From contig OZ024743.1 of the NCBI GenBank assembly GCA_964016885.1, positions 194,184,001 through 194,248,000 on the forward strand: a stretch of 64,000 nt of DNA, in the 5' to 3' direction. The notes under the pieces were generated by a model. It did not search any database, was not told where the DNA came from, and worked only from the letters and a program-made list of their open reading frames with translations. Below are positions 1,284 through 61,791 of the stretch, piece after piece. The position numbers were made by a program, and so were the translations under genes. This stretch comes from Eledone cirrhosa. Its lineage: Eukaryota. Positions within the stretch are counted from its first letter, which is position 1, and every line of letters starts with the position of its first letter.

Positions 1284-1321
1284 TTGCGAGATTTTTGATA
1301 TGAAATCGTGTGTCGAAACAA

Positions 1322-1943
<622 letters not shown>

Positions 1944-3745: not shown

Positions 3746-4452
3746 AATGTATAAGCTCTCCGAGAAATTATAACTCTTCTATCAATGCATAAGCTCTCTG
3801 AGAAAGTATAACTCTTCTATCAATGTATAAGCTCTCTGAGAAAGTATAACTCTTCTATCAATGTATAAGCTCTCTGAGAAAGTACAATTCTTCTATCAAT
3901 GTATAAGCTCTCTGAGAAAGTATAACTCTTCTATCAATGTATAAGCTCTCTGAGAAAGTATAACTCTTCTATCAGTGTATAAGCTCTCTGAGAAAGTATA
4001 ACTCTTCTATCAATGTATAAGCTCTACGAGAAAGTATAACTCTTCTATCAATGCATAAGCTCTCTGAGAAAGTATAACTCTTCTATCAATGTATAAGCTC
4101 TCTGAGAAAGTATAACTCTTCTATCAATGTATAAGCTCTCTGAGAAAGTATAACTCTTCTATCAATGTATAAGCTCTCTGAGAAAGTATAACTCTTCTAT
4201 CAATGTATAAGCTCTCTGAGAAAGTACAATTCTTCTATCAATGTATAAGCTCTCTGAGAAAGTATAACTCTTCTATCAATGTATAAGCTCTCTGAGAAAG
4301 TATAACTCTTCTATCAATGTATAAGCTCTCTGAGAAAGTATAACTCTTCTGTCAATGTATAAGCTCTCTGAGAAAGTATAACTCTTCTATTAATGTATAA
4401 GCTCTCTGAGAAAGAATAACTTTTCTACCAATGTATAAGCTCTCTGAGAAAG
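3746..4452. repeat. 38-bp minisatellite, ~18.5 copies
   Basis: Unit aatgtataagctctctgagaaagtataactcttctatc in head-to-tail array with no spacers. Confidence 0.97.
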
Positions 4453-4932
4453 TCAGTAAATTGTTTTCATAAATATTTAGTTCACATTTTAAAGATAAAG
4501 GATAGATACAAGAAATATTTGATAAAGTGGTAATAGAACATGTTGAACTTTTCACATAATTAGGCTCGATAATATTTTGCATACACAAGAGAAACATTCA
4601 ATGACTCAAAAGCAATAAAACTAGTTGTAGTAAACATTATCAAATGGTCCTCATTATTTCTTTTATCAATTTATTAGCATCAGTACGTTTAAAAAAAAAA
4701 ATCTTAATGATATTCTCATAATGCAGTTATTTTAGCTATAATCGCCTATTTAAGTGCCAGCTTGCTCTATGCTGATAAAAAAAAATATTTATTTGAACTT
4801 TGAACACAATTTTGGTTCATATGGTTGTTTTTTTAGAAGAAAACTTCAAGGCGCCATAAATTATTGGTTTGAGGAATGAAGTAAGAGAAAAGCAGAGTGG
4901 GGAGATAGAGAGAAGAAAGAGAAATATAGAGT

Positions 4933-8961: not shown

Positions 8962-9484
8962 TAATAATAATGCTGTGATATATATTTCAATGGCGACAGT
9001 GGTCACACTGTTCCGTGCGCCAGTGTTGCGACATCGTCAGAAAGCTTTTTACATAATAAGGTTATGTTTCTGAGGCAATCCAAATTGAATTGATACTCAC
9101 ACTCTCCCATCCCCACTGGCTTTCGACTGACAGCCACTGACGGGATAGGTAGCAGTAAGCTATATTACAGGCCTTGAATGGGTCATTGTTTGGCTGAGAG
9201 GGGGAACCGACTAAGCGAATTTCGTTGAAATCTGCGGTAGCTAATGGTCAACTTCCCACGGACCTGCGCCTGCGCAGACCAGTGGGGGTGAATTGGTACT
9301 CACTGGGGAATGGACGAAAAACCCAAGAGCACACACTTCGCCCGTTTCCATGTCGATTCAATTCGGATTGCCTCGGAAACATAACCTTATTATGTAACAA
9401 GCTGTCTGACGATGTCGCGACACTGGCGCACGGAACAGTGTGACCACTGTCGCCATTGAAATATATATCACAGCATTATTATTA
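8962..9484. mobile_element. Foldback element (arms ~8962-9092 and 9355-9484) with a degenerate HHR-like motif in each arm
   Basis: Arms are reverse complements; right arm reads CTGACGA-tgtcgcgacactggcgcac-GGAAC-agtgt. Confidence 0.75.
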
Positions 9485-9780: not shown

Positions 9781-10871
9781 GTGAAACTTAGTGAGTTTAT
9801 TCCAGTTTTGTTATGTGTAGTTATATACGTTAATTTAGTAGCAAAGCAACATAAAAATGTTTGATATTAAACACAGGGAAGATATATCATATCATGAGAA
9901 TAATTCAGAAAGTTGAGCAGCATATTATTCAAATTCTTCTTGAATGTATTGCGAGAAAGAAGAAGAATGATTTTTGCTACATGCTGAGTTTATCACTGTT
10001 TAGATCGATAGTAATATGTAATAAAGCATACCGGGATATACTAAAGCGATCCATAATTCATCAGTATTGACATACTATGTCAAGATTATATTCAATCAAG
10101 AATGGTAAAAATGAGAAGAACAAATAATGCGGGAAAATATGACATAGTATGATTTAAAACATTCAAGATGGTAGAATGTCGTGCTAACTATACGTCAAAT
10201 TTATATTTTTTTAGCTATAGTGTGAATACAAGTCTCACCAGGGTCCAATAGATTTTTCGCTTTTTCTGCTCTGGAAGAATAGAAATTAGCCATAAAATAT
10301 TGTAGCCTAGAGCGAATATAATACATTATTGACTAACAAGATTTGTTGGATCTCCGTCTATTTCGACAACGAGGCATCAAGTTTTTTGGGCGTAGGAAAA
10401 GTTTATTCGTGAAGTTAAAGTACAGATGGCTGCATCGTAACGAAAATGACCATAATAATAGTCGATAAGTATAAATAACAACATAAATAATAGTATATAT
10501 ACATAGAGGAAAATGTGTTAAATCCTTGGAACAATTAGGTATATTTGTAAAGCGGAAATGAATGACTTCACTTGTAGCTCTAAACAGTTTAATTTTAAGA
10601 AAATAGTGAATCGTAAAAGTAAGATTATTGATTAAGTGTGGAGTTGGGAGGTATTGGGGATAAGGGAGCCAGATGTGATGGTCAGATTTGTTCCCTAGAG
10701 GCAAAGTTAATGGGTATTTAAAGAATGTTTTAGAAAGGGGCTGTGAAAGTGCCCTGCTGCTGGTTCCATTTTGATAGAACTTACTAGATCTACAAAGCAA
10801 AATTGTAAAATTGTAATATTATAAAATTTAATTGTTTAGAACTACGAATGAAGTCATTCTTTTCCTTTTTT

Positions 10872-10940
<69 letters not shown>

Positions 10941-11141
10941 ACGTACATACCTATATGTATACAGACGTACAGTAGTATGTATATTCATACATACATGCAC
11001 ACACATATATATATATATACATATGGGTTTACCGAACATTTATTATAATGCTCGGTTTGTTTGTAAACAAACAGCCCGAATTATTAGCCGTACAGTGTTC
11101 GGCAACCATTGTTGCCCTTTTGTTCAACACTGACAAAGGAA

Positions 11142-11182
11142 CGATGAACTAGTTTCGCGCTTATTGGCTGTCATCAGCACCG
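11142..11182 (-). ncRNA. Minimal type I hammerhead ribozyme
   Basis: cggtg-CTGATGA-cagc caata agcgc-GAAA-ctag-TT-catcg; stem I cggtg/catcg, palindromic stem III. Confidence 0.8.
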
Positions 11183-11906
11183 TATACTTTCCTGTCAGTC
11201 GATTGAACGTTTGAAAGTATATACTTTCCTTATGCATATTAACGGCTGAACAGCCTAATTTGCATATTGAGTGAGTTAGTTGGCCGGGCGTACCGAAAAC
11301 GATAAATATAAAAAATTAAATTTCATTTCTCACACTTAGTACGGCTGATACTTAAATATAATTATGTATATGTACATACATATATGTATACAGACGTACA
11401 GTAGTATGTATATTCATACATGCACACATATATATATGTACGTATGGGTTTACCGAACATTTATTATAATGCTCGGTTTGTTCGTAAACAAACAGCCCGA
11501 ATTATTAGCCGTACGGTTCATCGTTCCTTTGTCAGTGTTGAACAAAATCGCAACGATGGTTGCCGAACACTGTACGGCTAATAATTTGGAATGTTTGTTT
11601 ACAAACAAACCGATCATTATAATAAATGTTTGATAAACCCATACGTACATATATATATGTGTGCATGTATGTATGTATATATATACTACTGTACGTCTGT
11701 ATACATATATGTATCTACGTATACATACTTATATTTAAGTATCAGCCGCACTAAGAGTGAGAAATGCAATTTCATTTTTTCCATTTATCGTTTTCGGTAC
11801 GCCCGGCCGACTAACTCACTCGATATGCAAATTAGGCTGCTCAGCCGTTAATATGCATAAGGAAATTATATACTTCAAACGTTCAATCGACTGACAGGAG
11901 GGTATA

Positions 11907-11947
11907 CGGTGCTGATGACAGCTAATAAGCTAGAATCTAGTTCATCG
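11907..11947 (+). ncRNA. Hammerhead copy with GAAA>GAAT mutation
   Basis: cggtg-CTGATGA-c agct aata agct a-GAAT-ctag-TT-catcg. Confidence 0.7.
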
Positions 11948-12243
11948 TTCCTTTGTCAGTGTTGAACAAAAGGGCAACAATGGTTGCCGAACACTGTACG
12001 GCTAATAATTCGGGCTGTTTGTTTACAAACAAACCGAGCATTATAATAAATGTTCTGTAAACCCATACGTACATATATATGTGTGCATGTATGTATGTAT
12101 ATACATACTACTGTACGTCTGTATACATATAGGTATGTACGTATACATACTTATATTTAAGTATCAGCCGTACTAAGGGCCGAGACCATGTACATACACA
12201 CACAGACGCACATACACACACACACACAGACACACACACACGC

Positions 12244-12325
<82 letters not shown>

Positions 12326-12719: not shown

Positions 12720-13726
12720 TATTTATGTATATATATAATTTGTACAGATTAATAGTTTAAACAGAGAATCTAAATAATTAATATTCGTTCTACGCTTATA
12801 TATCTGTGTGTGTGTGTATGTATATATATGTATGTAAAAGAGTGATATGATATATTCTACTTCGTTAAGTTACAATGACTAAAATGAAAAACCTATGGAA
12901 ATAGTTAAGCAACTAAGATCGAAACCTAAACTCTCTAGTAGAAAAAAATTAATCTATAAACATAATTTGTTAGGCTTTTTCAGTATTGATAGTCATTAGT
13001 GTTATTTATTGGGTATTAGCAATCGATCCCGATAATATAGGAAATCACTTATGTAACAAACCGATAACATAAGTTAAAAATAATGAGTCGACATTTATTT
13101 CTTTCAACAAGTTTCACCATAGAGTATATCAGTCACGTTAATGAAAAAAACCCCCAAAAAACCACAACTACAACCAAACGTACGAATATCAGTTATCCAT
13201 TTTGCAAAACGAAAATGTAAATTGATATATTTAAATGGATGCTAAGAGGAAAAACAGCGTTGGTCACCCTTACTTTAAGGTTGTATAAATCAAAGTAACG
13301 ACTCGTATCACTTAGATATTACTAATGGAATTCAAATACACAAGTTTTACAGCTAAGTATAAATAGATTTGATTTTGTTCAATTAAGTCGAATTTTTATT
13401 CTGTTCATTGACTAGAAAATGACACTGAAATGGCTAACAAATCAGCAATAAAATGACTACAAGAGAACAGGTAAAAACATATTTAAGAACGTTAAGAGCA
13501 GAGGCTATTGATTGAAGCATTATAAATTCAAATTAAATAGCACCGTTAAAAAAGTATAGTAAGTAGTCGACAGATTATTGGTTTAAATATTTCTATCACT
13601 GGCAAACGTCTAGAAAGTGGTGCAATGTAAATGAACAAATATTTCAAAATATAAATATCTGTAAAATTAGAATATGACGCAAATGATTTCTTAACAAGGC
13701 AATATATATATATTTAATATAGACAA

Positions 13727-13775
13727 GCTTCTACAGGACTAGAACTGCTTCATTCGTGATAAATCATCAGGAAGC
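13727..13775 (-). ncRNA. Hammerhead copy (GAAA>GAAG)
   Basis: Reverse complement of the 14080-14128 motif with two substitutions. Confidence 0.7.
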
Positions 13776-14079
13776 TGCCTGTCCAAGTAAATATGGTGGT
13801 ATTTATATCTTTTCTGGTGGTAGGAGAGAGTGGGGATTGGGATGGGCGGAGGTCATTGGTTGATGGGTTTAAAGAAAAGGGAATTCTTTAAAAGCTAATT
13901 CTTTAAAGCTATAATTTATATTTGTCACTCTAAATATAAATCATAGCTTTAAGGAATCAGCTGTTAAAGAATTCCCTTTTCTTTAAACCCATCAACCAAT
14001 GACCTCCACCCATCCCAATCCCCACCTTCTCCTACCACCAGCAAATATATAAATACCACCATATTTACCTGGACAGTCA

Positions 14080-14128
14080 GCTTCCTGATGATTTCTCACG
14101 AATGAAACAGTTCTAGTCCTGTAGAAGC
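14080..14128 (+). ncRNA. Type I hammerhead ribozyme, canonical core
   Basis: gcttc-CTGATGA-t ttc tcac gaa t-GAAA-cag ttctagtc ctg-TA-gaagc; all three stems pair, GUA cleavage triplet. Confidence 0.88.
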
Positions 14129-14259
14129 TTTTCTATATTAAACATTTATACTCTGCTATGTATTGAGTACCTTATTTACTGTGGTTACCCCCGATTGAAC
14201 CCGGAATAACTTATATATATATATATATATATATATATCTTTTTTACATATATACATAC

Positions 14260-17223: not shown

Positions 17224-18964
17224 GTCGAATAATAATAATATTTGCTTCGTTTGCAAGCAAACAGCCTCATTACGCTATGTTTTTTAGATAACTGTTCTAG
17301 ATTTATTTACTGTTGATTTTAAGGCGGCTTCTCTCGTCTAAAACACATAGCGTAATGAGGTTCTTTGCTTGCAAACGAACCAAATATTTTTATTATTCGA
17401 TACAAAACTCATGAATGGAATTCCCACAATATACTGGACTAAATAAATCGACTTACAGAATTGATGTCCTGCTGAAGGAATAAATTCTATTATATACGTT
17501 ATCTTGCTGAATATAACATTGTCTATATCTGTTAAAAAGACGAAAGGTTCATTTTGCGGTTCATAATATAGTGTAGCGACACAAAAATAATATATTTCAC
17601 AGATAATATTGCGTAACAGGAACATCAACTGAAGTGGCAAAACTAAGAATAACAAAAGTAACGCTTCAACATAATTTCGTATTTCGTAATGTTTGGGAAC
17701 AGGATATACATATAACAGAAAAATCTAGAAAAGTCTTTAAATGGTTTTGTTAAGTTTAAATGTGGTTCCTGTAATGGATTCTCCATAAAATCCTTATTCT
17801 TTGAAAGCGATCGTGCACAAAGGAAGATAGCATTAAGAAAACTTTTCACTGATCCCAAACTGTAATCTTGTATTTACCCAGCATGATGCCATCGCTGTGG
17901 CGGCTGACTGATACTTAATGACAGAAACGGTTGATTACAAGACCAACCTGAATATTCCCGACTCACATTTATTCTAATACTACTATTTATCTCTTACATG
18001 TACTAAATAGTGGCCTTCGAAATTACCTCCTGGAAAGAAGAAAAACAAACAACGAAAGGGAATTTTCTGCTTTTGCATTTCACAGCAAGTAGAACGTAAT
18101 AGGTTAGTAAAAGAAGCCAAACATTTAGAGTCAAAAAGAATTCTTTGTGTAAGTAGCGTTGCAGGATTCTAAACTGTAGGGCGCCAAAGTAACTTTTATT
18201 CAATTGAAAGATACATTAATGTAAGGTAGCGTGGTTAATGTATAAAAACGTAATGAATTCTTAATGGTAAGAAATATAATGACATAGCTAAAAGAACACG
18301 AAACGATAATGAGAACTCACGTATTAAATAAAATAAAATAAAAAGAATGGAAAACAAACAACCAACCGAACCATATAATAAAACGATGTCTTCCTTTCCA
18401 ATACGTGTTGTTATGTTTGTTTCTTCTGTAACAGAACATTTCTCTTCTGAATCTTTTGTGCAAGTATTATGTAAACGTAATATATTTGTCCATTTTATCG
18501 TCTTGACCAGTTTTTTCTAACATTAAAAAAGCAATATCGCCAGCAGACAATATGCAAATTACTGTTCATTTATGTTAAACATAGGATTAGAAAATTATTC
18601 ACTGAAGAGTTTAACTATTTGATGTTCATACTATTCTCAAAGACAGCTCTGTAAAATAAATCAAACGGCACGACTCAAGGATTGATCCCTGATCTAAAAT
18701 ACTCGCTATAACTTAAAGATATCAACAACGAAGGTCTTTTGACTATACACGATTTAATCTTTTGAAGAGAAAGGATTTGTAACCCATTTAATCATCTATA
18801 ATTTGTTTCCGGAACTTACTTGAAAATTGCTATTTATTTTAAGGACATTGAACTGGTGAACTGACATGATAGAGTTGGAGATAATAGAATTCGCAAAGTG
18901 ATGCATTAACATTCACGTAGGAAACACAACATTGATTTTGGTTCTTAGAAAAAGAAAATTGGGA

Positions 18965-20364: not shown

Positions 20365-20543
20365 TACAACGAAGGAAATGTGGTAAGGAACCAGGTGGAC
20401 CATAACGCACCAAAGTACTCAATACTTAAGGTAGTAGAGTGGGTAATAGGAACGAGTAGGACCCCGACAGCTGAGCTCAAGCCGTTTCGCCGGCTAAGCC
20501 GTCGAAACGGCTTGAGCTCAGCCGTCGGGGTCCTACTCGTTCA
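20365..20543. mobile_element. pLTR fragment with hairpin containing the 3' half of an HHR; family copies at 1191-1245, 44384-44483, 45374-45396 and 57768-57897
   Basis: aacgagtaggaccccgac...tttcg pairs with cgaaa...gtcggggtcctactcgtt; cggc taa gccg-tc-GAAA-cggc ttgagctca gccg-TC-gggg. Confidence 0.8.
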
Positions 20544-20566
20544 TATATATATATATATATATATAT

Positions 20567-33234: not shown

Positions 33235-33698
33235 TATATATCATAAAACATGTCTATAGAATCACAAGATAAAATATATACCATTTCCTCTCCCAATTAG
33301 CATAATTAACTATATAAAAAATCGAATAGACCAGGCTATAAGAATGAGGCTTCTATGAAGAAATCTCTAACAAATAACCGAAATTAGCCCTTCGCGTCGG
33401 CCACAACGGAATATTTATCGAATATTTCGACAGCGTAATCGCCCAGATACAGTCAACTAAACAGAATTCTGTTTAGTTGACTGTATCTGGGCGATTACGC
33501 TGTCGAAATATTCGATAAATATTCCGTTGTGGCCGACGCGAAGGGCTAATTTCGGTTATTTGTTAGAGATTTCTTCATAGAAGCCTCATTCTTATAGCCT
33601 GGTCTATTCGATTTTTTATATAGTTAATTATGCTAATTGGGAGAGGAAATGGTATATATTTTATCTTGTGATTCTATAGACATGTTTTATGATATATA
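33235..33698. repeat. Spacerless 464-bp palindrome
   Basis: Centre GAATTC at 33464-33469; no arm mismatch found by eye. Confidence 0.95.
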
Positions 33699-33871
33699 TA
33701 TATATATATGGGAGGAGGTTATAGTTCACTTGAAGCATTGTGTAATGAGGTATAAACGTTAGAATATGTGTAATAAGGCCAAGACAATGCAGATATGGAC
33801 ATAGAAAAAAGAATGCAATAGTGAGAGATATTGATGAGAATTCGTCTTTCACCTTGAATTTATTTAAATGT

Positions 33872-33906
33872 CCTTAATTTTCGAGATAATATCTCTTCTT
33901 CGGAGG
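33872..33906 (-). ncRNA. Minimal HHR variant (CCGAAGA) in the pLTR; second copy 37007-37041
   Basis: cct-CCGAAGA-a gagat att atctc-GAAA-at-TA-agg. Confidence 0.6.
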
Positions 33907-34290
33907 GAAGTAAAAGTCTCAGACCAGCGTCTTAAATTTCCAATGAAGCCATGCTGACCGGAAATAGTATACAGTTCTAACTTTAAAATCAAAGAATTAA
34001 AATTAGGTGGGTAAAGAGTAGTCTCCCTTTAAGAGGGGTTTGTTTATGTTTTTGTTGTATTTTTTAAATTTTATATGCGTGCCTGTATATGTGTGTGGGA
34101 GAAAGCATGAAGGTGTAGGTATGTGGGTGTGTGTGTGTGTGAGTGTGGGAAGATAGGTCTAATCGTAAAAGTGGGGGGTAGGTGTTATCTGGTGTTAGAA
34201 CTGGTTTTGTGTGTGTATGTGTGAGAGAGAATAAGTGGAGGTGTGCGCGTGCGTGTGTGTGGGGTGTGTAAAGTGGGGCTAGAGGCCCTA

Positions 34291-36873
34291 TCAGGTTATA
34301 AATTGGGTGTTGAGCTCTAGTCTATTACTGATTGGTGGATGTGTTCTATCTATAATGAGTGCTTCCTTGATTCTAAGATTGCCGAGGTTTCTTTCTTTAG
34401 TTTCTATCCTAACTGTTATGTTTTTATCAGTGTTTTTGCATTTAACTAGGTGTTTCTTAAATGAGGAAGCGTTAGTATTGAGGTGTTCTTTTATTCTTAT
34501 GTGGAGTGGTCTGGTGGTGCTACCTACGTAGAAGTTGTTGCATTTGTCACACTCTAGTCTGTAAACTACGTAAGCCTGGTGGCATAGGTCTGTGTCGTTG
34601 ATGGGGCAGTTGGCTAGTCTGCAGCAGTTGTCATGTCTGGTGGAGCGTCTCTTAGCTAGCCGTCCACGCAAAGAAGGACCCGAATGGGCCAGTTGAATAT
34701 CCAGACCTTCTCGTCTGATGGCTCTGCGGATGGCTGTTGTTGTTTCTTCACTGAAGTGTGGGAGCTTCAGGAAGCAAGTGTTAGTGCCTCGGGTGTGGTG
34801 TCCTCTGTTCTTTCTGGCACGGTTTGTGGTGGATGTCGTGTATCCGTTCAGTTTGAGTACTTCCAGGAAATGTGTGGTGTGTGTGTCTCGGTCTCTGGCG
34901 TCGGTGCATTTGTTCTTGATACGTGCCAGTTCGTTCTTTATGTATCCGAACTTGGCACCGAGTGGGAGGTCCGATCTGAAATGTACGAACAGGTCCCTGC
35001 TGGCGGATTTTTTATAGAAGCAGGTGTGGATGTTGCCTTCCTCTGTTACCCTGAGTTGGAAGTCCAGCAGGGATAGGGATCCGCGGTCATCGGGGTGTTC
35101 TATGCTGAACTTTATACTGGCGTCCATGCTGGAGAATGTTGTGTATATTTTCTCTGCCTCTTCACGGGATGATGTAAGGATGAGTATGTCATCTACATAT
35201 CGGGTGAAGAAGGCATGGGAATGGCAGGTGTTGAGGGCTCGGCATTCTAGCTGGTTCATGTAAGTGATGGCCAGCAGGCCAGAGAGGCTGGATCCCATGG
35301 GTAATCCTGTTGTCTGTCTGTATGTGTGGTGGTGGAAGGTGAAGTACGTGTTGTCTACTGTGAAGGACAAAAGTTGGTGTATGTCCGTCGGGTGGAGGCC
35401 GTAGCAGTGGATGTTCTCTGCGACCACGCAGTCCGTCAATAAATCGACAGCTGGGTGAGCGGGGACTGTAGTGTAGAGGGAGACAACGTCGAGGCTAAAA
35501 GCGTATTTGTTAAGTTTAAGTTGTTCTGGCTGGAGTTGGTGTAATCTACGTATAACTTCGTCGGAGCTACTGACATGTCCGGGGAAGGTGGAGAGTAGAG
35601 GCTTGAGGACCTGGGAGAGAAGCCAGGAAATTTTGTATAGGGGTCCTTCTATGCTAGAGACGATGGGTCTTATATGCGTCTTAGTGCTATTCTTGTGGGT
35701 CTTGATGAGGTGGTAGAAAGTGGGCAGTCTGCTATTTCTAGTGGTGTAGTTGAGTTTAATTTTATTCGGGAGTTGTCTTCTCCTACAGATATCGAACCAA
35801 ATGGAGTTGGTCTGTTTTTCGATTTGGGCTGCGGTCATGTCCGGGATCACTGTGTACAGTTCACTGTCGCTTAGGTGTTCGAAGGCTAGGTTATTGTATG
35901 TGGCTTGAGAGATGACGCAGAACTCTTTACCTTTGTCGGATGGTAAGTAAATAAGTTCCTTATTCCGTAGGTTCTTCAGGGCGAGTTGTTGTGTCCTGGA
36001 GAGGTTAGGGGCCATCTTCTTCTGTTTCCGTAAGATGTTAAATACGGAATGTTTTAGTCTCGAGAGTTTTTCTTCCAGCTCGCGGTTGGCGGGCGGTGGA
36101 TAGAGTGGGCGATCTAGTTGGTATATCGGGAATCTGGGTGTGGTGGATTCCGTGGTGTTGTTGTCGAGAGTCGATATCCATTTCAGTTGGTAGGCAGTCC
36201 GACAGAAATTCGTTTCTATGTCGAGCCATAGTCTGTCGTCCAGTCTCTGTTTCAATATGAACTTGGGACCCAGGCTGAGGAGGTCTAATTCCTCTCGGGA
36301 GAGGGATCCTGTCAAGTCTGTGACGAGGTGTTTTGCGTCAGGTGTGTTGTTGGTCGGGGTGCCGCTAGGTTCGGTGTTGGTAACGTATTGTTCGCCTCTG
36401 TTGGTGTTTGGCGTTGGGATGTTGTTAAGACAGTTGGCCGTCCTGAGTTTGAGAAATTTTTGCGTTAGGCGTATTTTCTCGTAGTCTCGGCGGTGGTGGT
36501 ATGAGCTGTCTATAGTGGCGGAGATGACCTTGGACAGAGGTTCTGGGGTTTCAGCGAGTTGTGGTACAAGGCTGGAGATAGTCCGTATGTGATGTTGTAG
36601 CGTGCGGTGTAGGTGTTGTATGAGTTTTCTTAGGCAGAATTTTTGTATGTAACTGAGTGATCGTTTGAGGCCTGGTGAATTGAAGCATGTTGGTAGGTGT
36701 ACATTTTTGATGGTTTTGGGAATGATGTTGTTATTCAGGCATCGTTTTAGGAAATTTATTTGGCAGCCGGCTTTGGCGCGCTTTTCAGATAGCTGGAAGA
36801 GTTTCTTTACAGTTGTGAACTGGGCCTGGCTCAGGCGTAATGAAAGGGGGAGGTTATAGTTCACTTGAAGCAT
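34291..36873 (-). CDS. PLE reverse transcriptase-GIY-YIG endonuclease (~860 aa from first ATG; frame open to 36987)
   Basis: PSDKG, IKTHK, IRPIVS, SLDVVSLYT, GLPMGS, RYVDD, VVY..C..C..YVGST..L..RIKEH, EALII. Confidence 0.95.
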   Translation of the reverse strand: MLQVNYNLPLSLRLSQAQFTTVKKLFQLSEKRAKAGCQINFLKRCLNNNIIPKTIKNVHLPTCFNSPGLKRSLSYIQKFCLRKLIQHLHRTLQHHIRTISSLVPQLAETPEPLSKVISATIDSSYHHRRDYEKIRLTQKFLKLRTANCLNNIPTPNTNRGEQYVTNTEPSGTPTNNTPDAKHLVTDLTGSLSREELDLLSLGPKFILKQRLDDRLWLDIETNFCRTAYQLKWISTLDNNTTESTTPRFPIYQLDRPLYPPPANRELEEKLSRLKHSVFNILRKQKKMAPNLSRTQQLALKNLRNKELIYLPSDKGKEFCVISQATYNNLAFEHLSDSELYTVIPDMTAAQIEKQTNSIWFDICRRRQLPNKIKLNYTTRNSRLPTFYHLIKTHKNSTKTHIRPIVSSIEGPLYKISWLLSQVLKPLLSTFPGHVSSSDEVIRRLHQLQPEQLKLNKYAFSLDVVSLYTTVPAHPAVDLLTDCVVAENIHCYGLHPTDIHQLLSFTVDNTYFTFHHHTYRQTTGLPMGSSLSGLLAITYMNQLECRALNTCHSHAFFTRYVDDILILTSSREEAEKIYTTFSSMDASIKFSIEHPDDRGSLSLLDFQLRVTEEGNIHTCFYKKSASRDLFVHFRSDLPLGAKFGYIKNELARIKNKCTDARDRDTHTTHFLEVLKLNGYTTSTTNRARKNRGHHTRGTNTCFLKLPHFSEETTTAIRRAIRREGLDIQLAHSGPSLRGRLAKRRSTRHDNCCRLANCPINDTDLCHQAYVVYRLECDKCNNFYVGSTTRPLHIRIKEHLNTNASSFKKHLVKCKNTDKNITVRIETKERNLGNLRIKEALIIDRTHPPISNRLELNTQFIT

Positions 36874-37432
36874 TGTGTGATGAGGTATAAACGTTAGAAT
36901 ATGTGTAATAAGGCCAAGACAATGCAGATATGGACATAGAAAAAAGAATGCAATAGTGAGAGATATTGATGAGAATTCGTCTTTCACCTTGAATTTATTT
37001 AAATGTCCTTAATTTTCGAGATAATATCTCTTCTTCGGAGGGAAGTAAAAGTCTCAGACCAGCGTCTTAAATTTCCAATGAAGCCATGCTGACCGGAAAT
37101 AGTATACAGTTCTAGCTTTAAAATCAAAGAATTAAAATTAGGTGGGTAAAGAGTAGTCTCCCTTTAAGAGGGGTTTGTTTATGTTTTTGTTGTATTTTTT
37201 AAATTTTATATGCGTGCCTGTATATGTGTGTGGGAGAAAGCATGAAGGTGTAGGTATGTGGGTGTGTGTGTGTACATACATAATATGGTTTACCTTTTGT
37301 GGTAGGGTGTATATCGTAGTTAGGACTCAATGTAATCCGTTAGCAAGTAATTCAGAGAGACCCAGAGATATATTCTGAGTCAATCCTTTAGATACAGAGC
37401 CTGATATATTAGATATTAGTTTAACAATGATA

Positions 37433-39625: not shown

Positions 39626-39869
39626 TAATCTTTCACACTAGTCAGCATTAAGTAGTCGGTAAAAAAATTGGAAAATGCAATGCGAGTGAAATCCATTGGA
39701 GAGAACTTTCAGACAATTAATTAGTATAAACAAACACGCCATATTGTACATTTATACACATTACATACACATACAAATATATATATATATAAAGAAAAAA
39801 AGATGAAATCGAAAATGTAACTGGAGTCTTATTTTAAAAAAAATATTTATTATTTGGTTCCTTATTTAT

Positions 39870-40517
39870 TTGGTACGAAAACAGAAACAAAATCAAGGTA
39901 CGTCCAATATTCTATCATATATCTCAACACACAACCCAAGAAATGCAGAAGCTTACAACACTATTCACAAGAACATCCCACTACTAAAACAAAACCCAAG
40001 AATGAAAAAAGCCCTTGAAACACACAAAATAATCAAAAGCAAAAGACAACCGAAATCACTGAAAACATTACTCACCAATGCCAAATTACCTACCACAAAC
40101 CCACAACCAACTGTCAAAAAATGTGGTCGCTCTAATTGTGGAACCTGCACTCACTTCATTGAAGGCAACACGTATACATTTAAATCAGGACAACATTTTA
40201 CTGTAAAAAATCACTTCACTTGCTCATCAAAAAATCTGATTTATGCCATTAAATGTAAAGGATGCAATGAAGATTATATAGGACAAACTAAACTCACACT
40301 CAGAAACAGAATGACAGTTCATCGCCAACAATTACGAGATCCAACCACGAGACAGATACCACTAAGCGCATATCTAGACATATGCGCAAGTAATAAGACA
40401 CCCAAATTCCAAGTCTTCCCATTTTACCTTTGCGCTAACAATACAACAGAACAAATACGAATAAATAAGGAAAATATGTTTATTCAAAAATATAGACCAG
40501 CATTAAATATGGTTTAA
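39870..40517 (+). pseudogene. PLE C-terminal fragment: Cys-rich linker plus GIY-YIG endonuclease (Neptune-like)
   Basis: KCGRSNCGTC, FTCSSKNLIYAIKCKGC..YIGQT...RNRMTVH, E..FI....PALN. Confidence 0.9.
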
Positions 40518-41069: not shown

Positions 41070-41119
<50 letters not shown>

Positions 41120-41123
<4 letters not shown>

Positions 41124-41432
41124 CACACAAATAAACATACACATCTTTACTTTCTTTACTTCAATAGAAAATCTGAATTCTGACACCCCAGCGAACTAAC
41201 CATATTCACTGAACCAGAACAATTCTCCCATCCCATTTCTCTTGACCATTATCTTTTGCTTGTCAAAAAATTCTCTAAAAAGGCTACAGAATAGATTTCC
41301 AAATAAGGGCGCGAAAATTTAATGAAAACTTGTTCACGTGGCAGCCATAATTTCATTTATAACCAATCAAATTACGTTTATTTAAAAAAAGCCTTCGTGA
41401 GCCCCCCCCCCTTTTTTTAATAAAAAGAAATT

Positions 41433-41475
<43 letters not shown>

Positions 41476-41790
41476 GCACACACATAAACATACATATCTT
41501 TACTTTCTTTATTCAATAGAAAATCTGAATTCTGACACCCCAGCGAACTAACCATATTCAATGAACCAGAACAATTCTCCCATCCAATTTCTCTTGACCA
41601 TTATCTTTTGCTTGTCATAACATTCTCTAAAAAGGCTACCGAATAGATTTCCAAATAACGGCGCGAAAATTTAATGAAAACTTGTTCACGTGACAGCCAT
41701 AATTTCATTTATAACCAATCAAATTACCATTATTAAAAAAAACCCTTCATGAGCCCCCCCTTTTTTAAGTAAAAAGAAATTCAAATATGA
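41120..41790 (+). repeat. 352-bp tandem duplication in the PLE 3' region
   Basis: atctgaattctgacacccc at 41171 and 41523. Confidence 0.9.
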
Positions 41791-45367: not shown

Positions 45368-45736
45368 AAAGGAGGGGTCTTGAACATTTTCCTATTTATA
45401 TATATTTATTTATTTATTCAATGAAGTTAAGTTGGTTGATTGAAAATCTGCCTACTTTTTCATAACAGATGACTCAACGGTTTATGTTTATCCGGAGGTT
45501 TATTAAAATAATAAATAAGAAAGAAGAGTGTATCATTCGATCATCCCTGTTTATTTTATTAAACATTTTTCGAAGAATTATGCCATTTGTATAACATCTG
45601 CCGCACGCGTTCTCTTCAGACAAGAAAACACGTAGGGCAGATGCTATACAAATGGCATACGTGTTCGAAATACGTATAATAAAATAAATAGGGATGGACA
45701 AATGATACCGTCTTTTTTGTTTATTATTATTTTGTT

Positions 45737-45915: not shown

Positions 45916-45964
45916 TATTAATGATAATAATAATAATAATAATAATAATATATATATATATATA

Positions 45965-46459
45965 TGAGTATAGACATAGAATATTCGAAAATATTCTGTA
46001 TGTTTATAATAAACATTTTGAAGACCTAATCGCTATAGAATAGAATACGTCACGTATTACAATTAGATTCTCGATAAAAGCAAGGGAAGTAATCTACGCG
46101 TTTCATATACTCACATATATATCGCTATTTCAGAGCATTTATTCCAATTTCTAATTTCTGCCGGACCGGCAACCGCTCTTTCAAACCAGTTCCAGTACAC
46201 AGCTAAGTATTCTATAAGTCTCTAGCTGTGTCATTCTCGATAAAAGCACTGGATATGTAGTCCTGATGAATTCTAACAAGAATGAAACGCGTAGATTACT
46301 TCCCTTGCTTTTATCGAGAATCTAATTGTAATACGTGACGTATTCTATTCTATAGCGATTAGGTCTTCAAAATGTTTATTATAAACATACAGAATATTTT
46401 CGAATATTCTATGTCTATACTCACATATATATCGCTATTTCAGAGCATTTATTCCAATA
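45965..46459 (+). mobile_element. Retrozyme-like element: 310-bp unit, terminal direct repeat, 142-bp 5' inverted copy
   Basis: 46106-46149 = 46416-46459; 45965-46106 is the reverse complement of 46282-46423. Confidence 0.9.
46257..46299 (+). ncRNA. Minimal type I hammerhead ribozyme, canonical core
   Basis: gtagtc-CTGATGA-attct aaca agaat-GAAA-cgcg-TA-gattac. Confidence 0.9.
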
Positions 46460-50692: not shown

Positions 50693-50893
50693 GATAGAGT
50701 AAGACACGCTTCGCATCGGCTCCGCTATTCCATCGGGATTTACCCTTACTATTGTAAGTACCGGATAAAATTTTTAGTGCAACACATTTGGAACACTAAC
50801 CCCTGTTATTTAGGGAAACATTTTTGCATTTACCCCCTTTTTAGGGGGTAAAATAAATATCTATTTTTGCCGAAAAATTTCTTTCTTGGCAGC

Positions 50894-52582
50894 ATGGCGG
50901 AAAAGATGGCAGACATGTCTGCCATTAGCTCTGCCACGCCCCCCAAGTCTGAAGAACAAAAAATAATTACAACAAAATTAGACTTTGAAACAAACAAACA
51001 AAATGAAAAAACAAATGTTAAGGAAAATGAGCAAACAGAAAACAAACAAACAGAAAATAATACAAATAACGACAGGGCAACTTTCGCCCAGAAAACAAAG
51101 CAATCCATTACATACACACCAATTGACCTAACTGCCGCCAGAGAAAAACTGGCCGAAGCAAAGAAACATATTGTTTTGGGAGAGAACGGAATGTTTTCCA
51201 TTAACTCCCCCCCAGAATTCAAGAAAGCCAGAGAAGAAAACACAGTTATATACAGAACTATACTAAACCAGTCAAGAAAGCCAGCACAGCCCAGCCAAAT
51301 GGAAATAGAGTTAGTCCTAAAAGACTATATGAAGAATATTCTCTTCATACGAAAGGACCGACTCTATGGCAGCATTTCGGTCCTAACAAGAGACAAAGAA
51401 ACGGCGGTTCAGCTTTCCCTAAGCCCACTCTCGTCGACAACATATAGCTTCTATCCCTCCTACATGGGTAGAAGAACACAGAGGGTAAAAGTAAAAACAA
51501 TGCTGCCCACAATGGACTTCTGGTGGGCTATTGCTGGCTTCATTGATATGGGCGAAGACACTATGCTGTCAATGGGGAAGGCAACTGGAGATGCGTTCCT
51601 GGGAATGGGCCTCGACATACTAGTCCAAATGAGGCCCGAAAGAATAGCACAAATCCCGGATCGCATCTGGCTGGATGACCTTACCCCAATAGACATAATT
51701 GTAGAGGGGAGAAGACCAGCATGCTATCTATGCATGGAAAGGGGACACGTTAAGGCTAACTGCCCGAAACGTATCCCCCAAAAAGGACTATTGCCCACAC
51801 CCACCACAAACAGTACACCAGCACCACCCACCTCCAAAAATACACTAATACCACACACAGCAAACAAAATACAGACACCACCAACCACAAACACAACACA
51901 AACATCACCACCACCAGCACCAAACACAAGCACGACACAAAAATCACCACCACCAACCACAACACAAACATCACCACCACCATTACCAACCACAAGCACG
52001 ACACAAACATTACCACCACCACCACCACAAAACCCATTCCAAACAAATAATAAAAAAAACAGTAACAAATCTACCCCTCCCGCAAAAAAAAAACAACCAC
52101 ACAACACGTCCCTCCCACCTAGCGCTGAAGAGTTTCCCCCAACTTCTGAAGAAGAAGGAGGAGAAGCCTTCAGACAAGTTAAAAGAAAAAAAAGAAAACA
52201 CACACCCAGCACACCACAAATAACCCACACACAAACACCAACTCCAATCAAAAACACCCCACCCTCAACAAACAAAAATAAATCTGCGCCTCCCCTCTCC
52301 GAAACATTGACAGCATCACAAAAAAAGACGTTGCAATACACATATATAAATAAAGAAAACAAAAAACTGGTTAAATTAATAAACAATAACCCTATGGTGC
52401 AGACCGAAGGGCCAAACTTTATCTCAACAGAGAACTTCACCCATTTAAAAATGATAAAGGTCCCTCTGGACCTTTATCGTTCCTTAAAAGAACAATTTAG
52501 ACGGGACGTGAGCCCCCCCCTGTTTAAAACCGTTGAATCGCGTCCTCTTGAAAGATTTCCCCATAACCGCCCCTCTCCCTGA
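50894..52582 (+). CDS. LINE ORF1, nucleic-acid-binding protein with a CCHC zinc knuckle and a P/T-rich region
   Basis: CYLCMERGHVKANC; basic QVKRKKRK; first ATG at 50894. Confidence 0.85.
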   Translation: MAEKMADMSAISSATPPKSEEQKIITTKLDFETNKQNEKTNVKENEQTENKQTENNTNNDRATFAQKTKQSITYTPIDLTAAREKLAEAKKHIVLGENGMFSINSPPEFKKAREENTVIYRTILNQSRKPAQPSQMEIELVLKDYMKNILFIRKDRLYGSISVLTRDKETAVQLSLSPLSSTTYSFYPSYMGRRTQRVKVKTMLPTMDFWWAIAGFIDMGEDTMLSMGKATGDAFLGMGLDILVQMRPERIAQIPDRIWLDDLTPIDIIVEGRRPACYLCMERGHVKANCPKRIPQKGLLPTPTTNSTPAPPTSKNTLIPHTANKIQTPPTTNTTQTSPPPAPNTSTTQKSPPPTTTQTSPPPLPTTSTTQTLPPPPPQNPFQTNNKKNSNKSTPPAKKKQPHNTSLPPSAEEFPPTSEEEGGEAFRQVKRKKRKHTPSTPQITHTQTPTPIKNTPPSTNKNKSAPPLSETLTASQKKTLQYTYINKENKKLVKLINNNPMVQTEGPNFISTENFTHLKMIKVPLDLYRSLKEQFRRDVSPPLFKTVESRPLERFPHNRPSP

Positions 52583-52735
52583 CACAACTCCAAATACCCC
52601 AACCCCACCACACACGTGTACCCCCACACCACCACAAAACATCCCTCCACCCAACACACCTGATGCCATGGAAATTACGCAACCCGGAGAGGTAAGTGCT
52701 TTTCTTTCTTCACTTTCAACACCAAAATAGATCAA

Positions 52736-55700
52736 TTGAGAGTTGGCTGTTTGAACGCGCGTGGCCTGAGCTCAGCTTGGAAGCAAGCAAAGCTTCTAAG
52801 TGACCTCAGGTCACAAAGTATAGATGTGATGGTTGTTTGCGAGAGTCGGATCAGCAGCGTGAGACAGCTGGCGCCCGCCTTCGATGACTTTGAGATGCAC
52901 GCATCTCTCTGTCAACCCGGAGGCGGGGGGGGAGTTGCCGTACTGCTGGATAAACGTCTAACTCTCGACGTACAGATTGTTCACTCGGACCCGGGGGGTC
53001 GATTACTGGTGCTGGACGTCGGAGGTGGTGAAGGCGGGGCTTTCAGACTGGTCGGTCTTTATGCTCCCTTCGGGGCGGAGAGAGCCGACTTCTTCCAACG
53101 TCTGGAGACTTTTCTAGGAACGTCGCGTTCCCTGCTTTTAGTGGGGGACTGGAATGGAATCCTAGATGCGCGTTGGGACTATGCAGGGGCATGTCCCGAT
53201 AGAGGGGGGTGTAGCAGCCTCAAGGGGTTACTCGATCGATTCGACCTGGTCGATAGATTTCGACTAGATTGTCCAACTGCGCCAACCTGGACCTGGGCAA
53301 ACCGCAGTGGACAATCTAGATCGTACCTAGATAGGTTTTTGGTTAGGAGTAAGGATAGGGACGTATTTAGTTGTCCAGAACTGATCATGGTTGGCTATTC
53401 AGATCACAAATTAGTGACCTGCGTGGTCAACCTTGATAGAACGCATAGACAGGGTCCCGGTTACTGGAAGATGAACTTGTCCTTACCGACAAAGAAAGAT
53501 TACAGAAACCGGATTAGTAGCTTAGTTAAGATGCGGTTGACGGGAGCGATCGTCAACAGTAGGTGGTGGATATCTCTAAAGAGAGAGATTAGAGTAAGTT
53601 CGATAGGTTACAGTAAGGAACTAGCGGCGAATAGAAATAGGAGGGAAAGGGAGTTAACAGATAAACTAGAAGAGGCGATTAGGAGCGGAGACGTAGCCAG
53701 AGTGTTAGCGACGAGAACGGCATTGAGCCAGTTCTTTGACACGAAGCACGAAGGCTGCGTTGTCCGAAGTAAAATACGTGCTTTAGGAAACGAGGGGACC
53801 AAAGCTGTTAGCTGGGCCCGCGTGACAGAAGCCAAGAGTGGGATTAAATCCACCATTCGGTCTTTGCGAGACCAGGATGGACGGGTGATCCTTGAACCTG
53901 AGCGAATGTGCGAGACCTTTCAAAGGCACTTTGCTCGACTGTTCGGAGGTGGCGGGGGGCCGGACGGGGATGTGGACTTCGGTCCATACCTCGACGGTCT
54001 ACCGCGTCTTTCGAGCGGCGAAGCGGAGTGCTGCGAAGGGCCAATCACAGCCACTGAAATCGGGGAAGCGCTCAGCCAATGCAGCAGACGCAAATCCCCG
54101 GGTCTCGATGGTCTACCATACGAACTTTATTTAGCTATGCCGGTCTTGTTCTCCGAACTCCTCGAGGCTGTCTATTGCAACTGGCAACAGAACGGGAGAA
54201 TTCCCTGTTCTGTGACCAAGGGCGTGGTCACGCTAGTGAGGAAGGACGAGAGCAAGGGGGACGACTTAAGTAACTTTAGGCCCATAACTCTGCTGAATGC
54301 AGAGTTACAGATTTTGGCCAAGGTGTTGGCGAAGAGGTTGGCGCTTGTGGTGGGTGGTTTGGTGGGAGACGCGCAGACATGCGCTATCCCGTCCAGGTCC
54401 ATTCACGACAACCTCCACCTCATGCGATACATCATAGAGAGGGTTGGCTACGAACCCGGCTTTGGTGGGGCCCTGATCAACTTGGATCAATCTAAGGCGT
54501 TCGATAGGGTCGACCATGGTTACCTGGATGCGGTGCTAGCGGCGGCGGGCTTCGGACCCGTTTTCAGGGGCTGGATTTCTGCCATGCACAGTGGCAACAT
54601 CTACTCTAGGATTAAAGTAAACGGCTACCTCTCGGAGCCGTTTCAAATCACCCGATCCATCAGACAGGGGTGCCCCCTCTCCTCCCTCCTGTACGTATTG
54701 ACTCTCGAGCCACTGCTGCGGAAGTTGGAGTTGCTGCGGGGCATACCCCTGGAACCGGGATTGCACAAAGCGGTCTCGGCCTATGCCGACGACGTAACAG
54801 TAATGGTGGCGGACGCCTCGGAAATCGGGGCGATCGCCACCCTACTGGAGGAATACGAAAGGCTGACGGGGGCTAAGCTGAACCAGGACAAGTCAGTCGG
54901 TTTGCAACTCGGAACGTGGAGGGGCAAACCGATGCCGTTAGACGGTGTCGTCGGGCGGTGGACGGAGGGCCCGGTGAAGCTGCTAGGGGTCTGGTTCGGA
55001 CCGGACCTCCAGGTGGAGAAGAATTGGGGCGAGGTGACGAGCAGGGTGTTTGCGCTGACCCAGAAGTGGGCCAAGTGCAAACTATCACTGAAAGGTCGGG
55101 CGGAGGTGACGAACGCTTACATAGCGTCCGTCATCTACTACCGCCTGACCGTCGTGCCTTGCCCCAAGGAAAAGCTCACCATCATGGAACGCATGCTCTT
55201 CCAGTTCCTCTGGAAGAAGCGGCCTCCCATGGTGAGGAGATCCATCTGCTGCCAGCACCCTTCGAAAGGAGGGCTGGGTATGCCGTGGCTGTTGATGCGT
55301 AGGCACGCATTGAGGCTACGGCATCTACAGGTATTCCTCAACGGTCAGCCGGTGTGGGCCCCGTTTGTGAGGCGAGCCTTCCCACAGCTCGTCTCGCTCA
55401 CCGAACTGCAATCCTGGGTGAAGCAAAGACCGAGAAAACTGGGCAACTGGCACACTGAGTGTGCCCAGGCGCTCACGGCTATCTGGCAAGCGGACCCGAC
55501 TGTCAGTGGAGAATCCACCTCAACATTCTATAGAGGGTTGGTGGCTAGCAGGGGCGACGACACCCTTGGAGAGTCGCTAGGCATGGAGGAGGACGAACTG
55601 GCCAGCCTGTTCGGTAGAACTTTCGGCCCGGGACCCATGGACAACTTCCAGAGGTCCCTAGCCTGGCAGTGTTACCGGGGGGCTCTGCCCGTTCGAGAAA

Positions 55701-61520: not shown

Positions 61521-61791
61521 TTGTTTTAGAGTAGTGACAGTCTCACTTACTTTAAATTTTCAGCAAACAGGGGAGATAAAGCTGACAGAGCGCTGTTTCG
61601 TACTTTTTGGTACTTATCAAAGCTAAGTACTCCACCTGTTTGCTGAAAATCATGGATGTTTGATTCTTATAGAATTCTAGTAATAATCAGGAACTGATTA
61701 TACAGAGCGAACGAAAGAGAGCTCTGTCAGCTTTATCTCCCCTGTTTGCTGAAAATTTAAAGTAGGTGAGACTGTCACTACTCTAAAACAA
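61521..61791. mobile_element. Foldback pLTR (arms 61521-61600 and 61711-61791)
   Basis: Arms are reverse complements; HHR overlaps the left arm. Confidence 0.85.
61580..61624 (-). ncRNA. Hammerhead, U3-A8 variant
   Basis: agct-TTGATAA-gtac caaaaa gtac-GAAA-cag cgct ctg-TC-agct. Confidence 0.78.

What the first reader, a model, noticed from the sequence alone, without database searches (positions are those of the whole stretch)
10937..12177. ~425-bp HHR unit in more-than-unit-length tandems, head-to-head
About 1.35 units on minus and 1.55 units on plus, non-coding, one HHR per unit, with an octamer ATGCAAAT (11825) upstream of the HHR. The head-to-tail continuity is the same in both blocks, as expected from reverse transcription of a circular or multimeric RNA (inference). 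The palindromic stem III (AACTAGTT) suits dimeric cleavage.
Basis: partly seen in the sequence, partly recalled or inferred. Interest (0 to 1): 0.75.

Follow-up and report, generated by a model that had tools for sequence, protein, structure and literature searches.

The report
Hammerhead retrozyme inserted Penelope-style
Two head-to-head arms of a roughly 423-base non-coding repeat, each with one damaged hammerhead (self-cutting RNA) motif, sit between microsatellites of an animal genome with the end structure typical of Penelope-like jumping genes; this is a known kind of parasitic repeat, likely pasted in by a Penelope-like enzyme, and nothing here shows an RNA circle.

Summary
There is a 584-bp minus arm (1.38 units) and a 662-670-bp plus arm (1.56-1.58 units) of a ~423-bp non-coding unit, joined 5' to 5'. 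Each arm has one complete type I hammerhead and one octamer. Thousands of related contigs and reads keep the catalytic core and show a likely compensatory change in helix I, so the ribozyme motif is real for the family. Both copies here are damaged.

The arms are not randomly permuted. They end 28-36 nt apart at one terminus, beside microsatellite. Partial tandem, inverted 5'-truncated copy, 30-40-bp tail and (TA)n target are the published signature of Penelope-like element (PLE) insertion. Three other, sequence-unlike hammerhead elements in this window are built the same way. Head-to-tail continuity therefore does not diagnose an RNA circle; the plus arm starting at the cut site favours a linear, partly cleaved multimer.

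Verdict: a new member of a known kind (non-LTR retrozyme, a non-autonomous PLE). The scan noted a similar ~420-bp element elsewhere in this genome. Still open: 5' truncation at the hammerhead in 3 of 4 elements, and a possible snRNA-type promoter.

The parts
10875..10933 (.). (TA)n microsatellite abutting the 3' end of the minus arm; likely insertion target
10934..11362 (-). Minus arm, one full terminus-to-terminus unit (~429 nt, with a TA/TG expansion), ending at unit position +207 from the cut site; no tail
11363..11517 (-). Minus arm, 5'-truncated upstream partial copy (starts about +52 from the cut site)
11141..11183 (-). Type I hammerhead, minus copy: core intact, helix II disrupted by private changes, GUU triplet, predicted cut between 11147 and 11146
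   Evidence: weak Rfam HH9; its helix II changes are absent from the >=5% variant list
11258..11265 (-). Octamer ATGCAAAT, minus copy
11512..11519 (.). Head-to-head (5'-to-5') junction with 2-4 nt microhomology; the plus arm begins between -3 and +2 of the hammerhead cut site
11516..11727 (+). Plus arm, 5'-truncated upstream partial copy, starting with the 3' half of the hammerhead
11728..12149 (+). Plus arm, one full terminus-to-terminus unit (422 nt)
11799..11832 (+). GC-box-like hexamer (11799-11804, minus strand) and octamer (11825-11832); candidate promoter element, untested
   Evidence: motifs recalled
11881..11967 (+). Type I hammerhead, plus copy (11906-11948) inside an extended helix I of about 25 bp: helix I 6 bp, helix II 4 bp over a C.A mismatch, helix III 2 bp palindromic; A15.1 replaced by T at 11936; GUU triplet, predicted cut 11942/11943
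   Evidence: (z -4.4, 0 of 100 shuffles as stable)
12150..12185 (+). PLE-type tail: 28 nt clean (to 12177), 36 nt if the degenerate end is counted; present on this arm only
12192..12320 (.). (CA)n-like then (TA)n microsatellite flanking the tail; no target-site duplication recognisable

Best explanation
This is one decayed insertion of a many-copy, ORF-less ~423-bp repeat with a type I hammerhead motif (a non-LTR retrozyme), likely copied into a TA microsatellite by a Penelope-like retrotransposon enzyme acting in trans. Inferred steps, taken from Poseidon biochemistry: a multimeric transcript of a tandem source locus is bound by the PLE protein; the GIY-YIG domain nicks both strands of the AT-rich target; each nick primes reverse transcription inside the RNA, at two sites 28-36 nt apart (+207 and +235 to +243 from the cut site), which leaves a tail on one arm only; each cDNA runs through one full unit and into the next; the two cDNAs are joined at their truncated ends, giving the head-to-head palindrome. 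The plus-arm template most likely had a self-cleaved 5' end and an uncut internal hammerhead (a partly processed linear multimer, about 55%), rather than being a circle (about 30%) or two monomers joined by template jumping. Shown: geometry, ends, tail, motif conservation in the family. Not shown: cleavage, transcription, the partner enzyme.
For: Geometry matches the PLE description point by point: partial tandem, adjacent inverted 5'-truncated copy, 30-40-bp tail at one end, (TA)n bias (PMC8557442 passages). Purified Poseidon protein nicks and extends both strands and starts inside the RNA at two sites that bound the tail (PMC11167929 parts 1-2). Three other hammerhead elements in the window share the layout, with extensions of ~41, ~26-35 and ~69 nt (lengths read by eye). 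PLE ORFs occur in the window, including a GIY-YIG fragment with a Neptune-like CX4CxxC linker at 39807-40517. The family is large: 7,900 contigs laid in X1, 5,431 in X4, 61 in X5, and 74,130 of 12.5 million reads in X15. In one search, none of 24 variant rows hits the invariant core or the four helix II pairs, except 11936, where about 99% of depth or reads carry the canonical A. Variation falls on N7, loop 2, H17 and the base of helix II. The 11909/11945 pair shifts G.U to U.G at matching frequency (32% and 31% of X16 reads) and to A-U in 72% of X4 depth. 6,713 X15 reads end about 10 nt past the same terminus and run into (TA)n. A 2026 preprint links animal retrozymes to PLE pLTRs.
Against: No cognate autonomous PLE was found: the unit has no significant match to the seven PLE or repeat stretches of the window that were tested (best E 0.72), and no genome was available. 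No target-site duplication; the right flank is not pure (TA)n. Population-level clustering of 5' ends at the cut site was not seen (table 6 empty; none among the 18 loose-end rows shown, 181 hidden). Two CpG-type helix I changes reach 7% and 10% in X4, one of them breaking a pair. The covariation is inferred from frequencies, not phased reads. In two other elements the arm starts about 12 nt upstream of the cut site, which a cleaved 5' end cannot explain. In Poseidon, hammerhead cleavage is dispensable and no RNA ends were found at the cut site.
Confidence: 0.85

Rival explanations
1. Same element and enzyme, but the template was a circular monomer (classic retrozyme model): the RT primes internally, rolls past the ligation junction and stalls at the folded hammerhead on a later pass.
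For: circRNAs are shown for coral, mussel and axolotl retrozymes (PMC7229834 parts 2-4). The natural cut-to-cut stretch 11519-11942 folds as a circle at -115.7 kcal/mol, 66% paired, z -5.3, 0 of 100 shuffles as stable. One informative site groups copies by arm (column 167). Two other elements keep about 12 nt upstream of the cut site.
Against: Stable folding fits a linear multimer equally. The other informative site groups copies by position in the tandem (column 201). The plus arm stops within -3 to +2 of the cut site (chance about 0.02 for either arm, post hoc), which is simplest with a physical 5' end. This subfamily has a GUU triplet (slow cleavage; recalled), which would leave multimers.
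Confidence: 0.3
2. The arms are only truncated pseudo-LTR remnants of an autonomous PLE, not an independent non-autonomous element.
For: Most PLE hammerheads are dispersed and few map to full elements (PMC4209133 passages); PLE insertions are usually 5'-truncated.
Against: Each arm holds a complete terminus-to-terminus unit of 422-429 nt preceded by another copy of the terminus, with no ORF between. An X4 contig piece spans 11691-11972, across terminus, octamer and hammerhead (record 9). The hammerhead is canonical, not the minimal PLE type.
Confidence: 0.08
3. A DNA-level event: a satellite fragment duplicated and inverted by recombination or replication fold-back, or an assembly artefact.
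For: Palindromes between microsatellites are common in this window.
Against: Arms differ by 2.5-8% with private variants. The offset ends, the tail and the start at the ribozyme recur in sequence-unlike families. I did not lay reads across the junction itself.
Confidence: 0.04

Closest known systems
Metazoan non-LTR retrozymes (Cervera and de la Pena 2020, PMC7229834; parts 2-4 of 6 read), especially mussel 350-390-bp repeats and axolotl HHR_Amex2
   Same: Non-coding, low-GC repeat of 150-450 bp with a canonical type I hammerhead; 2-bp helix III; a mismatch at the base of helix II (U.U in one subfamily here, as in Amex2); self-paired monomer fold.
   Different: Unit slightly longer than the 170-400-nt RNAs tested; this copy is a head-to-head pair of partial tandems with a PLE tail; GUU triplet and C.A mismatch in this subfamily; circRNA and cleavage untested.
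EN+ Penelope-like elements (Neptune, Naiad, Poseidon; PMC8557442 passages; PMC11167929 parts 1-2 of 4)
   Same: Partial tandem, inverted 5'-truncated neighbour, 30-40-bp tail on one end, (TA)n or AT-rich target, hammerhead upstream of the priming sites.
   Different: No RT-EN ORF; canonical rather than minimal hammerhead; partner family not identified.
Retrozymes as non-autonomous PLEs (Li, Clavereau, Pollet 2026, bioRxiv 10.64898/2026.07.22.740005; parts 1-3 of 5 read)
   Same: Same proposed relationship.
   Different: That work rests on co-occurrence and pLTR homology, mostly in vertebrates; here the evidence is insertion architecture in a presumed invertebrate. This locus fails their 'active' criterion of two consecutive complete hammerheads.
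Newt satellite 2 (Coats et al. 1994, not held; seen only as cited in PMC2220036)
   Same: Hammerhead repeat with a possible snRNA-type internal promoter (that the newt promoter includes an octamer is recalled).
   Different: No PSE-like match found here with a recalled vertebrate motif; promoter activity untested.

Membership tests
Non-LTR retrozyme | Head-to-tail repeat of 150-450 bp, GC below 50% | tested here: met
   spacing 421-424; GC 0.33 in bin 10001-12000
Non-LTR retrozyme | Type I hammerhead in the unit | tested here: met
   core conserved across the family; both copies here damaged
Non-LTR retrozyme | No protein-coding capacity | tested here: met
   longest ATG frame 89 aa; 0 of 11 overlapping frames hit Pfam
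Non-LTR retrozyme | Many copies in the genome | tested here: met
   thousands of contigs and 0.6% of RAD reads in related runs; not a copy number
Non-LTR retrozyme | No LTR, PBS or PPT | not tested
   no LTR-like flanks seen by eye; PBS and PPT not searched
Non-LTR retrozyme | Self-cleavage of the transcript | not testable with these tools
   needs in vitro transcription
Non-LTR retrozyme | Expression as linear and circular monomer RNA | not testable with these tools
   needs northern blot or suitable RNA data
Active retrozyme locus (Li et al. 2026 criterion) | [quoted passage not shown] | tested here: not met
   one complete, damaged hammerhead per arm; so filed as a dead copy
PLE-type insertion | Partial tandem plus adjacent inverted 5'-truncated copy | tested here: met
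PLE-type insertion | 30-40-bp tail at one end only | tested here: met
   28 nt clean, 36 nt with degenerate end
PLE-type insertion | AT-rich or (TA)n target | tested here: met
   left end abuts (TA)n; right end has (CA)n-like then (TA)n
Autonomous PLE | RT plus GIY-YIG ORF | tested here: not met
   not filed as autonomous
Non-autonomous derivative of a named PLE | Homology to the pLTR of an autonomous partner | tested here: inconclusive
   no match to seven window stretches, best E 0.72; genome not held
Newt satellite 2-type snRNA promoter | Octamer plus proximal sequence element driving Pol II | tested here: inconclusive
   octamer in 2 of 2 copies; no PSE-like match with a recalled motif; activity untestable

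The most novel reading that the evidence does not exclude
Animal retrozymes are copied by PLE enzymes through two-site internal priming, and the hammerhead itself sets where the cDNA stops. In 3 of 4 sequence-unlike hammerhead elements of this window one arm begins in helix III or at the cut site. That would give the long-unexplained PLE hammerhead a role in defining insertion ends. This family would in addition carry its own octamer-based, snRNA-type promoter, as newt satellite 2 does, contrary to the view that retrozymes lack promoters.
Probability: 0.25. Interest if true: 0.58.

Novelty: new member of a known kind. Interest (0 to 1): 0.3.

Why it matters
The class is described, so this is mainly annotation. 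Its use is as a test case. The retrozyme-PLE link in print rests on co-occurrence and pLTR homology, whereas these insertions carry the PLE tail and inverted-arm signature directly and predict the two priming sites. A genome with many such families allows a purely computational test of circle versus linear template, and of whether hammerheads set 5' truncation points. That bears on the open question of what PLE hammerheads are for. I found no description of such a family in octopuses or other cephalopods in four searches, apart from a bare count of 235 hammerheads in giant squid (PMC6962438 passage); unread supplements may hold one.

Tried and rejected
No whole genome is held, so permutation and partner could not be tested genome-wide. 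No RNA holder was listed among 17 runs; this is no evidence on expression.

Pattern scans of metagenome contigs and viral contigs found 0 loci. Rfam at gathering score: 0 hits in the window; the miRNA-family rows at low threshold are TA-hairpin noise.

Unconstrained folds of short hammerhead stretches do not give the hammerhead shape, and 3 of 4 are no better than shuffles, as expected for a weak helix III and damaged copies.

RAD-seq depth steps were rejected as element ends: ends at 11830/11833 and loose ends at 11771/11772 coincide with AATT sites, and the step at about 11946 lies one read length from CATG at 12086 (the enzymes are my inference). 'Opposite strand' joints (10 of the 15 rows shown, 70 hidden) cannot be oriented and may include library chimeras.

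The shared-variant test of circle versus linear template was a tie (1 site each). Pol III A/B boxes and a PSE-like motif (recalled) are absent or at chance level. No host gene exon was found: 1 of 94 frames in 2-33 kb hit Pfam, a weak RT. The homologue search with the 34.3-37.0-kb PLE ORF did not name the host. Coats 1994, Lunse 2017 and the supplement of PMC7229834 could not be read. The sequence look-up in earlier findings was empty, as was the nearby-place look-up.

Full report
Setting. The window is AT-rich and dense in microsatellites, with a ~190-bp dispersed repeat that from memory resembles an octopus SINE. The host was not identified by any search. No whole genome is held. No host exon was found in 2-33 kb: 1 of 94 frames hit Pfam, a weak RT.

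Observation. The repeat is real. The minus arm runs 11517->10934 (584 nt, 1.38 units) and the plus arm 11516->12177, with a degenerate extension to 12185 (1.56-1.58 units). Spacing is 421-424. The four segments are 92.3-97.5% identical over their shared part. The element is non-coding. The octamer is in both arms.

The hammerhead. Each arm holds one complete type I motif. In the plus copy helix I is 6 bp, helix II is 4 bp above a C.A mismatch, and helix III is 2 bp with a palindromic 2-nt loop. This is the canonical metazoan layout described in PMC4209133 (passages). Helix I extends to about 25 bp (z -4.4, 0 of 100 shuffles). Rfam sees only a weak HH9 match. Both copies are damaged: the plus copy has T at position 15.1 (11936), and the minus copy has private changes that break helix II.

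Family data (1,277 and 1,198 contigs, 24,801 reads) show that the motif is conserved. Of 24 variant rows at 21 positions, none touches C3, U4, G5, A6, G8, A9, G12, A13, A14, the 15.2-16.2 pair, U16.1 or the four helix II pairs. At 11936 about 99% carry A in all three runs. Variation falls on N7, loop 2, H17 (A in 74% of X1 depth and 93% of X16 reads, 3% of X4) and the base of helix II (U.U in about 95% of X16 reads, as in axolotl HHR_Amex2). The 11909/11945 pair reads U.G in 32% and 31% of X16 reads (phase not shown) and A-U in 72% of X4 depth. Against this, two CpG-type helix I changes reach 7% and 10% in X4. The window's copies belong to the GUU subfamily. laid 7,900 (X1), 5,431 (X4) and 61 (X5) contigs and 74,130 of 12.5 million reads (X15). 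This is a large family present in three organism labels; the depths are not copy numbers.

The ends decide the mechanism. The arms are joined 5' to 5'. The minus arm ends at +207 from the predicted cut site and runs straight into (TA)n. The plus arm passes the same point and continues 28-36 nt before (CA)n-like and (TA)n sequence. Each arm is one full terminus-to-terminus unit preceded by a truncated copy. Craig et al. (PMC8557442, 12 of 14 passages) describe this for PLEs: partial tandems, an inverted 5'-truncated copy at the 5' end, a 30-40-bp tail at one end, and (TA)n bias. Frangieh et al. (PMC11167929, parts 1-2 of 4) showed that purified Poseidon protein nicks and extends both target strands, starts reverse transcription inside the RNA at two sites that bound the tail, and does not need hammerhead cleavage. 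In X15, 6,713 reads leave the unit about 10 nt past the same terminus into (TA)n (number of loci unknown).

Three other hammerhead elements in the window have the same layout: about 1290-1825, 13705-14210 and 45956-46458, with one-sided extensions of about 41, 69 and 26-35 nt. The last has 99-100% identical arms, so the process is recent. The focal unit has no significant match to them. PLE coding sequences are nearby: RT plus GIY-YIG at 34291-37008, a GIY-YIG fragment with a CX4CxxC linker at 39807-40517, and RT at 62491-63459. None of the stretches tested resembles the unit (best E 0.72), so the partner is unknown.

Circle or linear template. Continuity across the cut site needs an uncut multimer, a ligated circle or a template jump, but does not choose among them. 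The natural cut-to-cut stretch folds well as a circle (z -5.3), and non-circular stretches of the unit fold about as well (z -4.2 and -5.3). Shared variants tie: one site groups by arm, one by position in the tandem. The plus arm begins between -3 and +2 of the cut site (2-4 nt microhomology; chance about 0.02, post hoc), which is simplest if the template had a self-cleaved 5' end and an uncut internal hammerhead. However, in the 46-kb and 1.3-kb elements one arm begins about 12 nt upstream of the cut site, which points instead to RT stalling on an intact hammerhead; the 14-kb element shows neither. Three of four elements with an arm starting in a 16-nt window has a rough post hoc probability of 0.003. 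Reads did not confirm clustering at the cut site, and the apparent RAD steps coincide with restriction-type sites. With one complete hammerhead per arm, this locus could not release a monomer or circle. It fails the 'active' criterion of Li et al..

The octamer. About 0.04 are expected per unit by chance, and a GC-box-like hexamer lies about 20 nt upstream. Newt satellite 2 is driven by an snRNA-type promoter (seen only as cited in PMC2220036; that it includes an octamer is recalled). A 2020 review states that retrozymes seem to lack promoters (PMC7761336 passage). No PSE-like match was found with a recalled motif, and one search showed only 40 of 128 variant rows, none in the octamer. This is a lead only.

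What is known. Non-LTR retrozymes with circRNA are described for coral, mussel and axolotl, with PLEs proposed as helpers (PMC7229834, parts 2-4 of 6; supplement unreadable). A 2026 preprint argues they are non-autonomous PLEs (parts 1-3 of 5). Four searches found no cephalopod family described. Earlier AI notes on this genome describe a ~420-bp hammerhead dimer with PLE ends, and 317 of 495 notes mention hammerheads; these are unchecked leads, seen after my own reading was formed.

Verdict. A real, decayed insertion of a non-LTR retrozyme with PLE-type ends: a new member of a known kind, interest 0.3. The circular RNA inference is plausible for the family but is neither shown nor required by this locus.

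Noticed in passing
window 45956-46458: Very young second-family element: one 310-bp unit plus 43-nt repeat on plus, 141-151-nt inverted arm 99-100% identical, intact-looking type I hammerhead at 46263 with GUA triplet; the inverted arm starts 12 nt before the cut site.
   Followed up: partly
window 13705-14210: Third hammerhead family, head-to-head arms 91% alike, hammerheads at 13770 (-) and 14085 (+) with a long loop III; about 69-nt one-sided extension before (TA)n.
   Followed up: partly
window 1290-1825: Fourth hammerhead family between (TA)n runs, degenerate hammerhead at 1563 (-), about 41-nt tail; the plus arm starts in helix III.
   Followed up: partly
window 33711-37172: Penelope-like element with an open 905-codon stop-to-stop RT + GIY-YIG frame (34291-37008, minus) and 99% identical direct pseudo-LTRs (33711-34037 and 36846-37172); best homologue 55% identical. 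No canonical hammerhead found in it by my pattern.
   Followed up: partly
window 33235-33698: Perfect 464-bp palindrome (arms 100% identical) between TA-rich flanks, with no canonical hammerhead; could be checked for the scrambled hammerhead that earlier notes report in this genome, or be a fold-back artefact.
   Followed up: no
window 8962-9484, 17225-17400, 20446-20546, 45505-45733, 61521-61791: Further inverted-arm elements without a canonical hammerhead.
   Followed up: no
window 56630 (-) and 49504 (-): Minimal hammerhead-like cores of the PLE type.
   Followed up: no
window 39807-40517, 61925-63459: Neptune-like PLE fragments (GIY-YIG with CX4CxxC linker; RT); candidates for the kind of helper that targets (TA)n.
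   Followed up: partly
window 50852-56164: Two-ORF non-LTR retrotransposon-like element (576 and 1166 codons, stop to stop), judged by eye only.
   Followed up: no
window 11516-11727: This partial copy carries more private changes than the other three segments (10-12 against 4-6 pairwise differences); unexplained.
   Followed up: no
window 3746-4453, 41083-41785: 38-bp minisatellite (18.6 copies) and a 352-bp dimer without a hammerhead.
   Followed up: no
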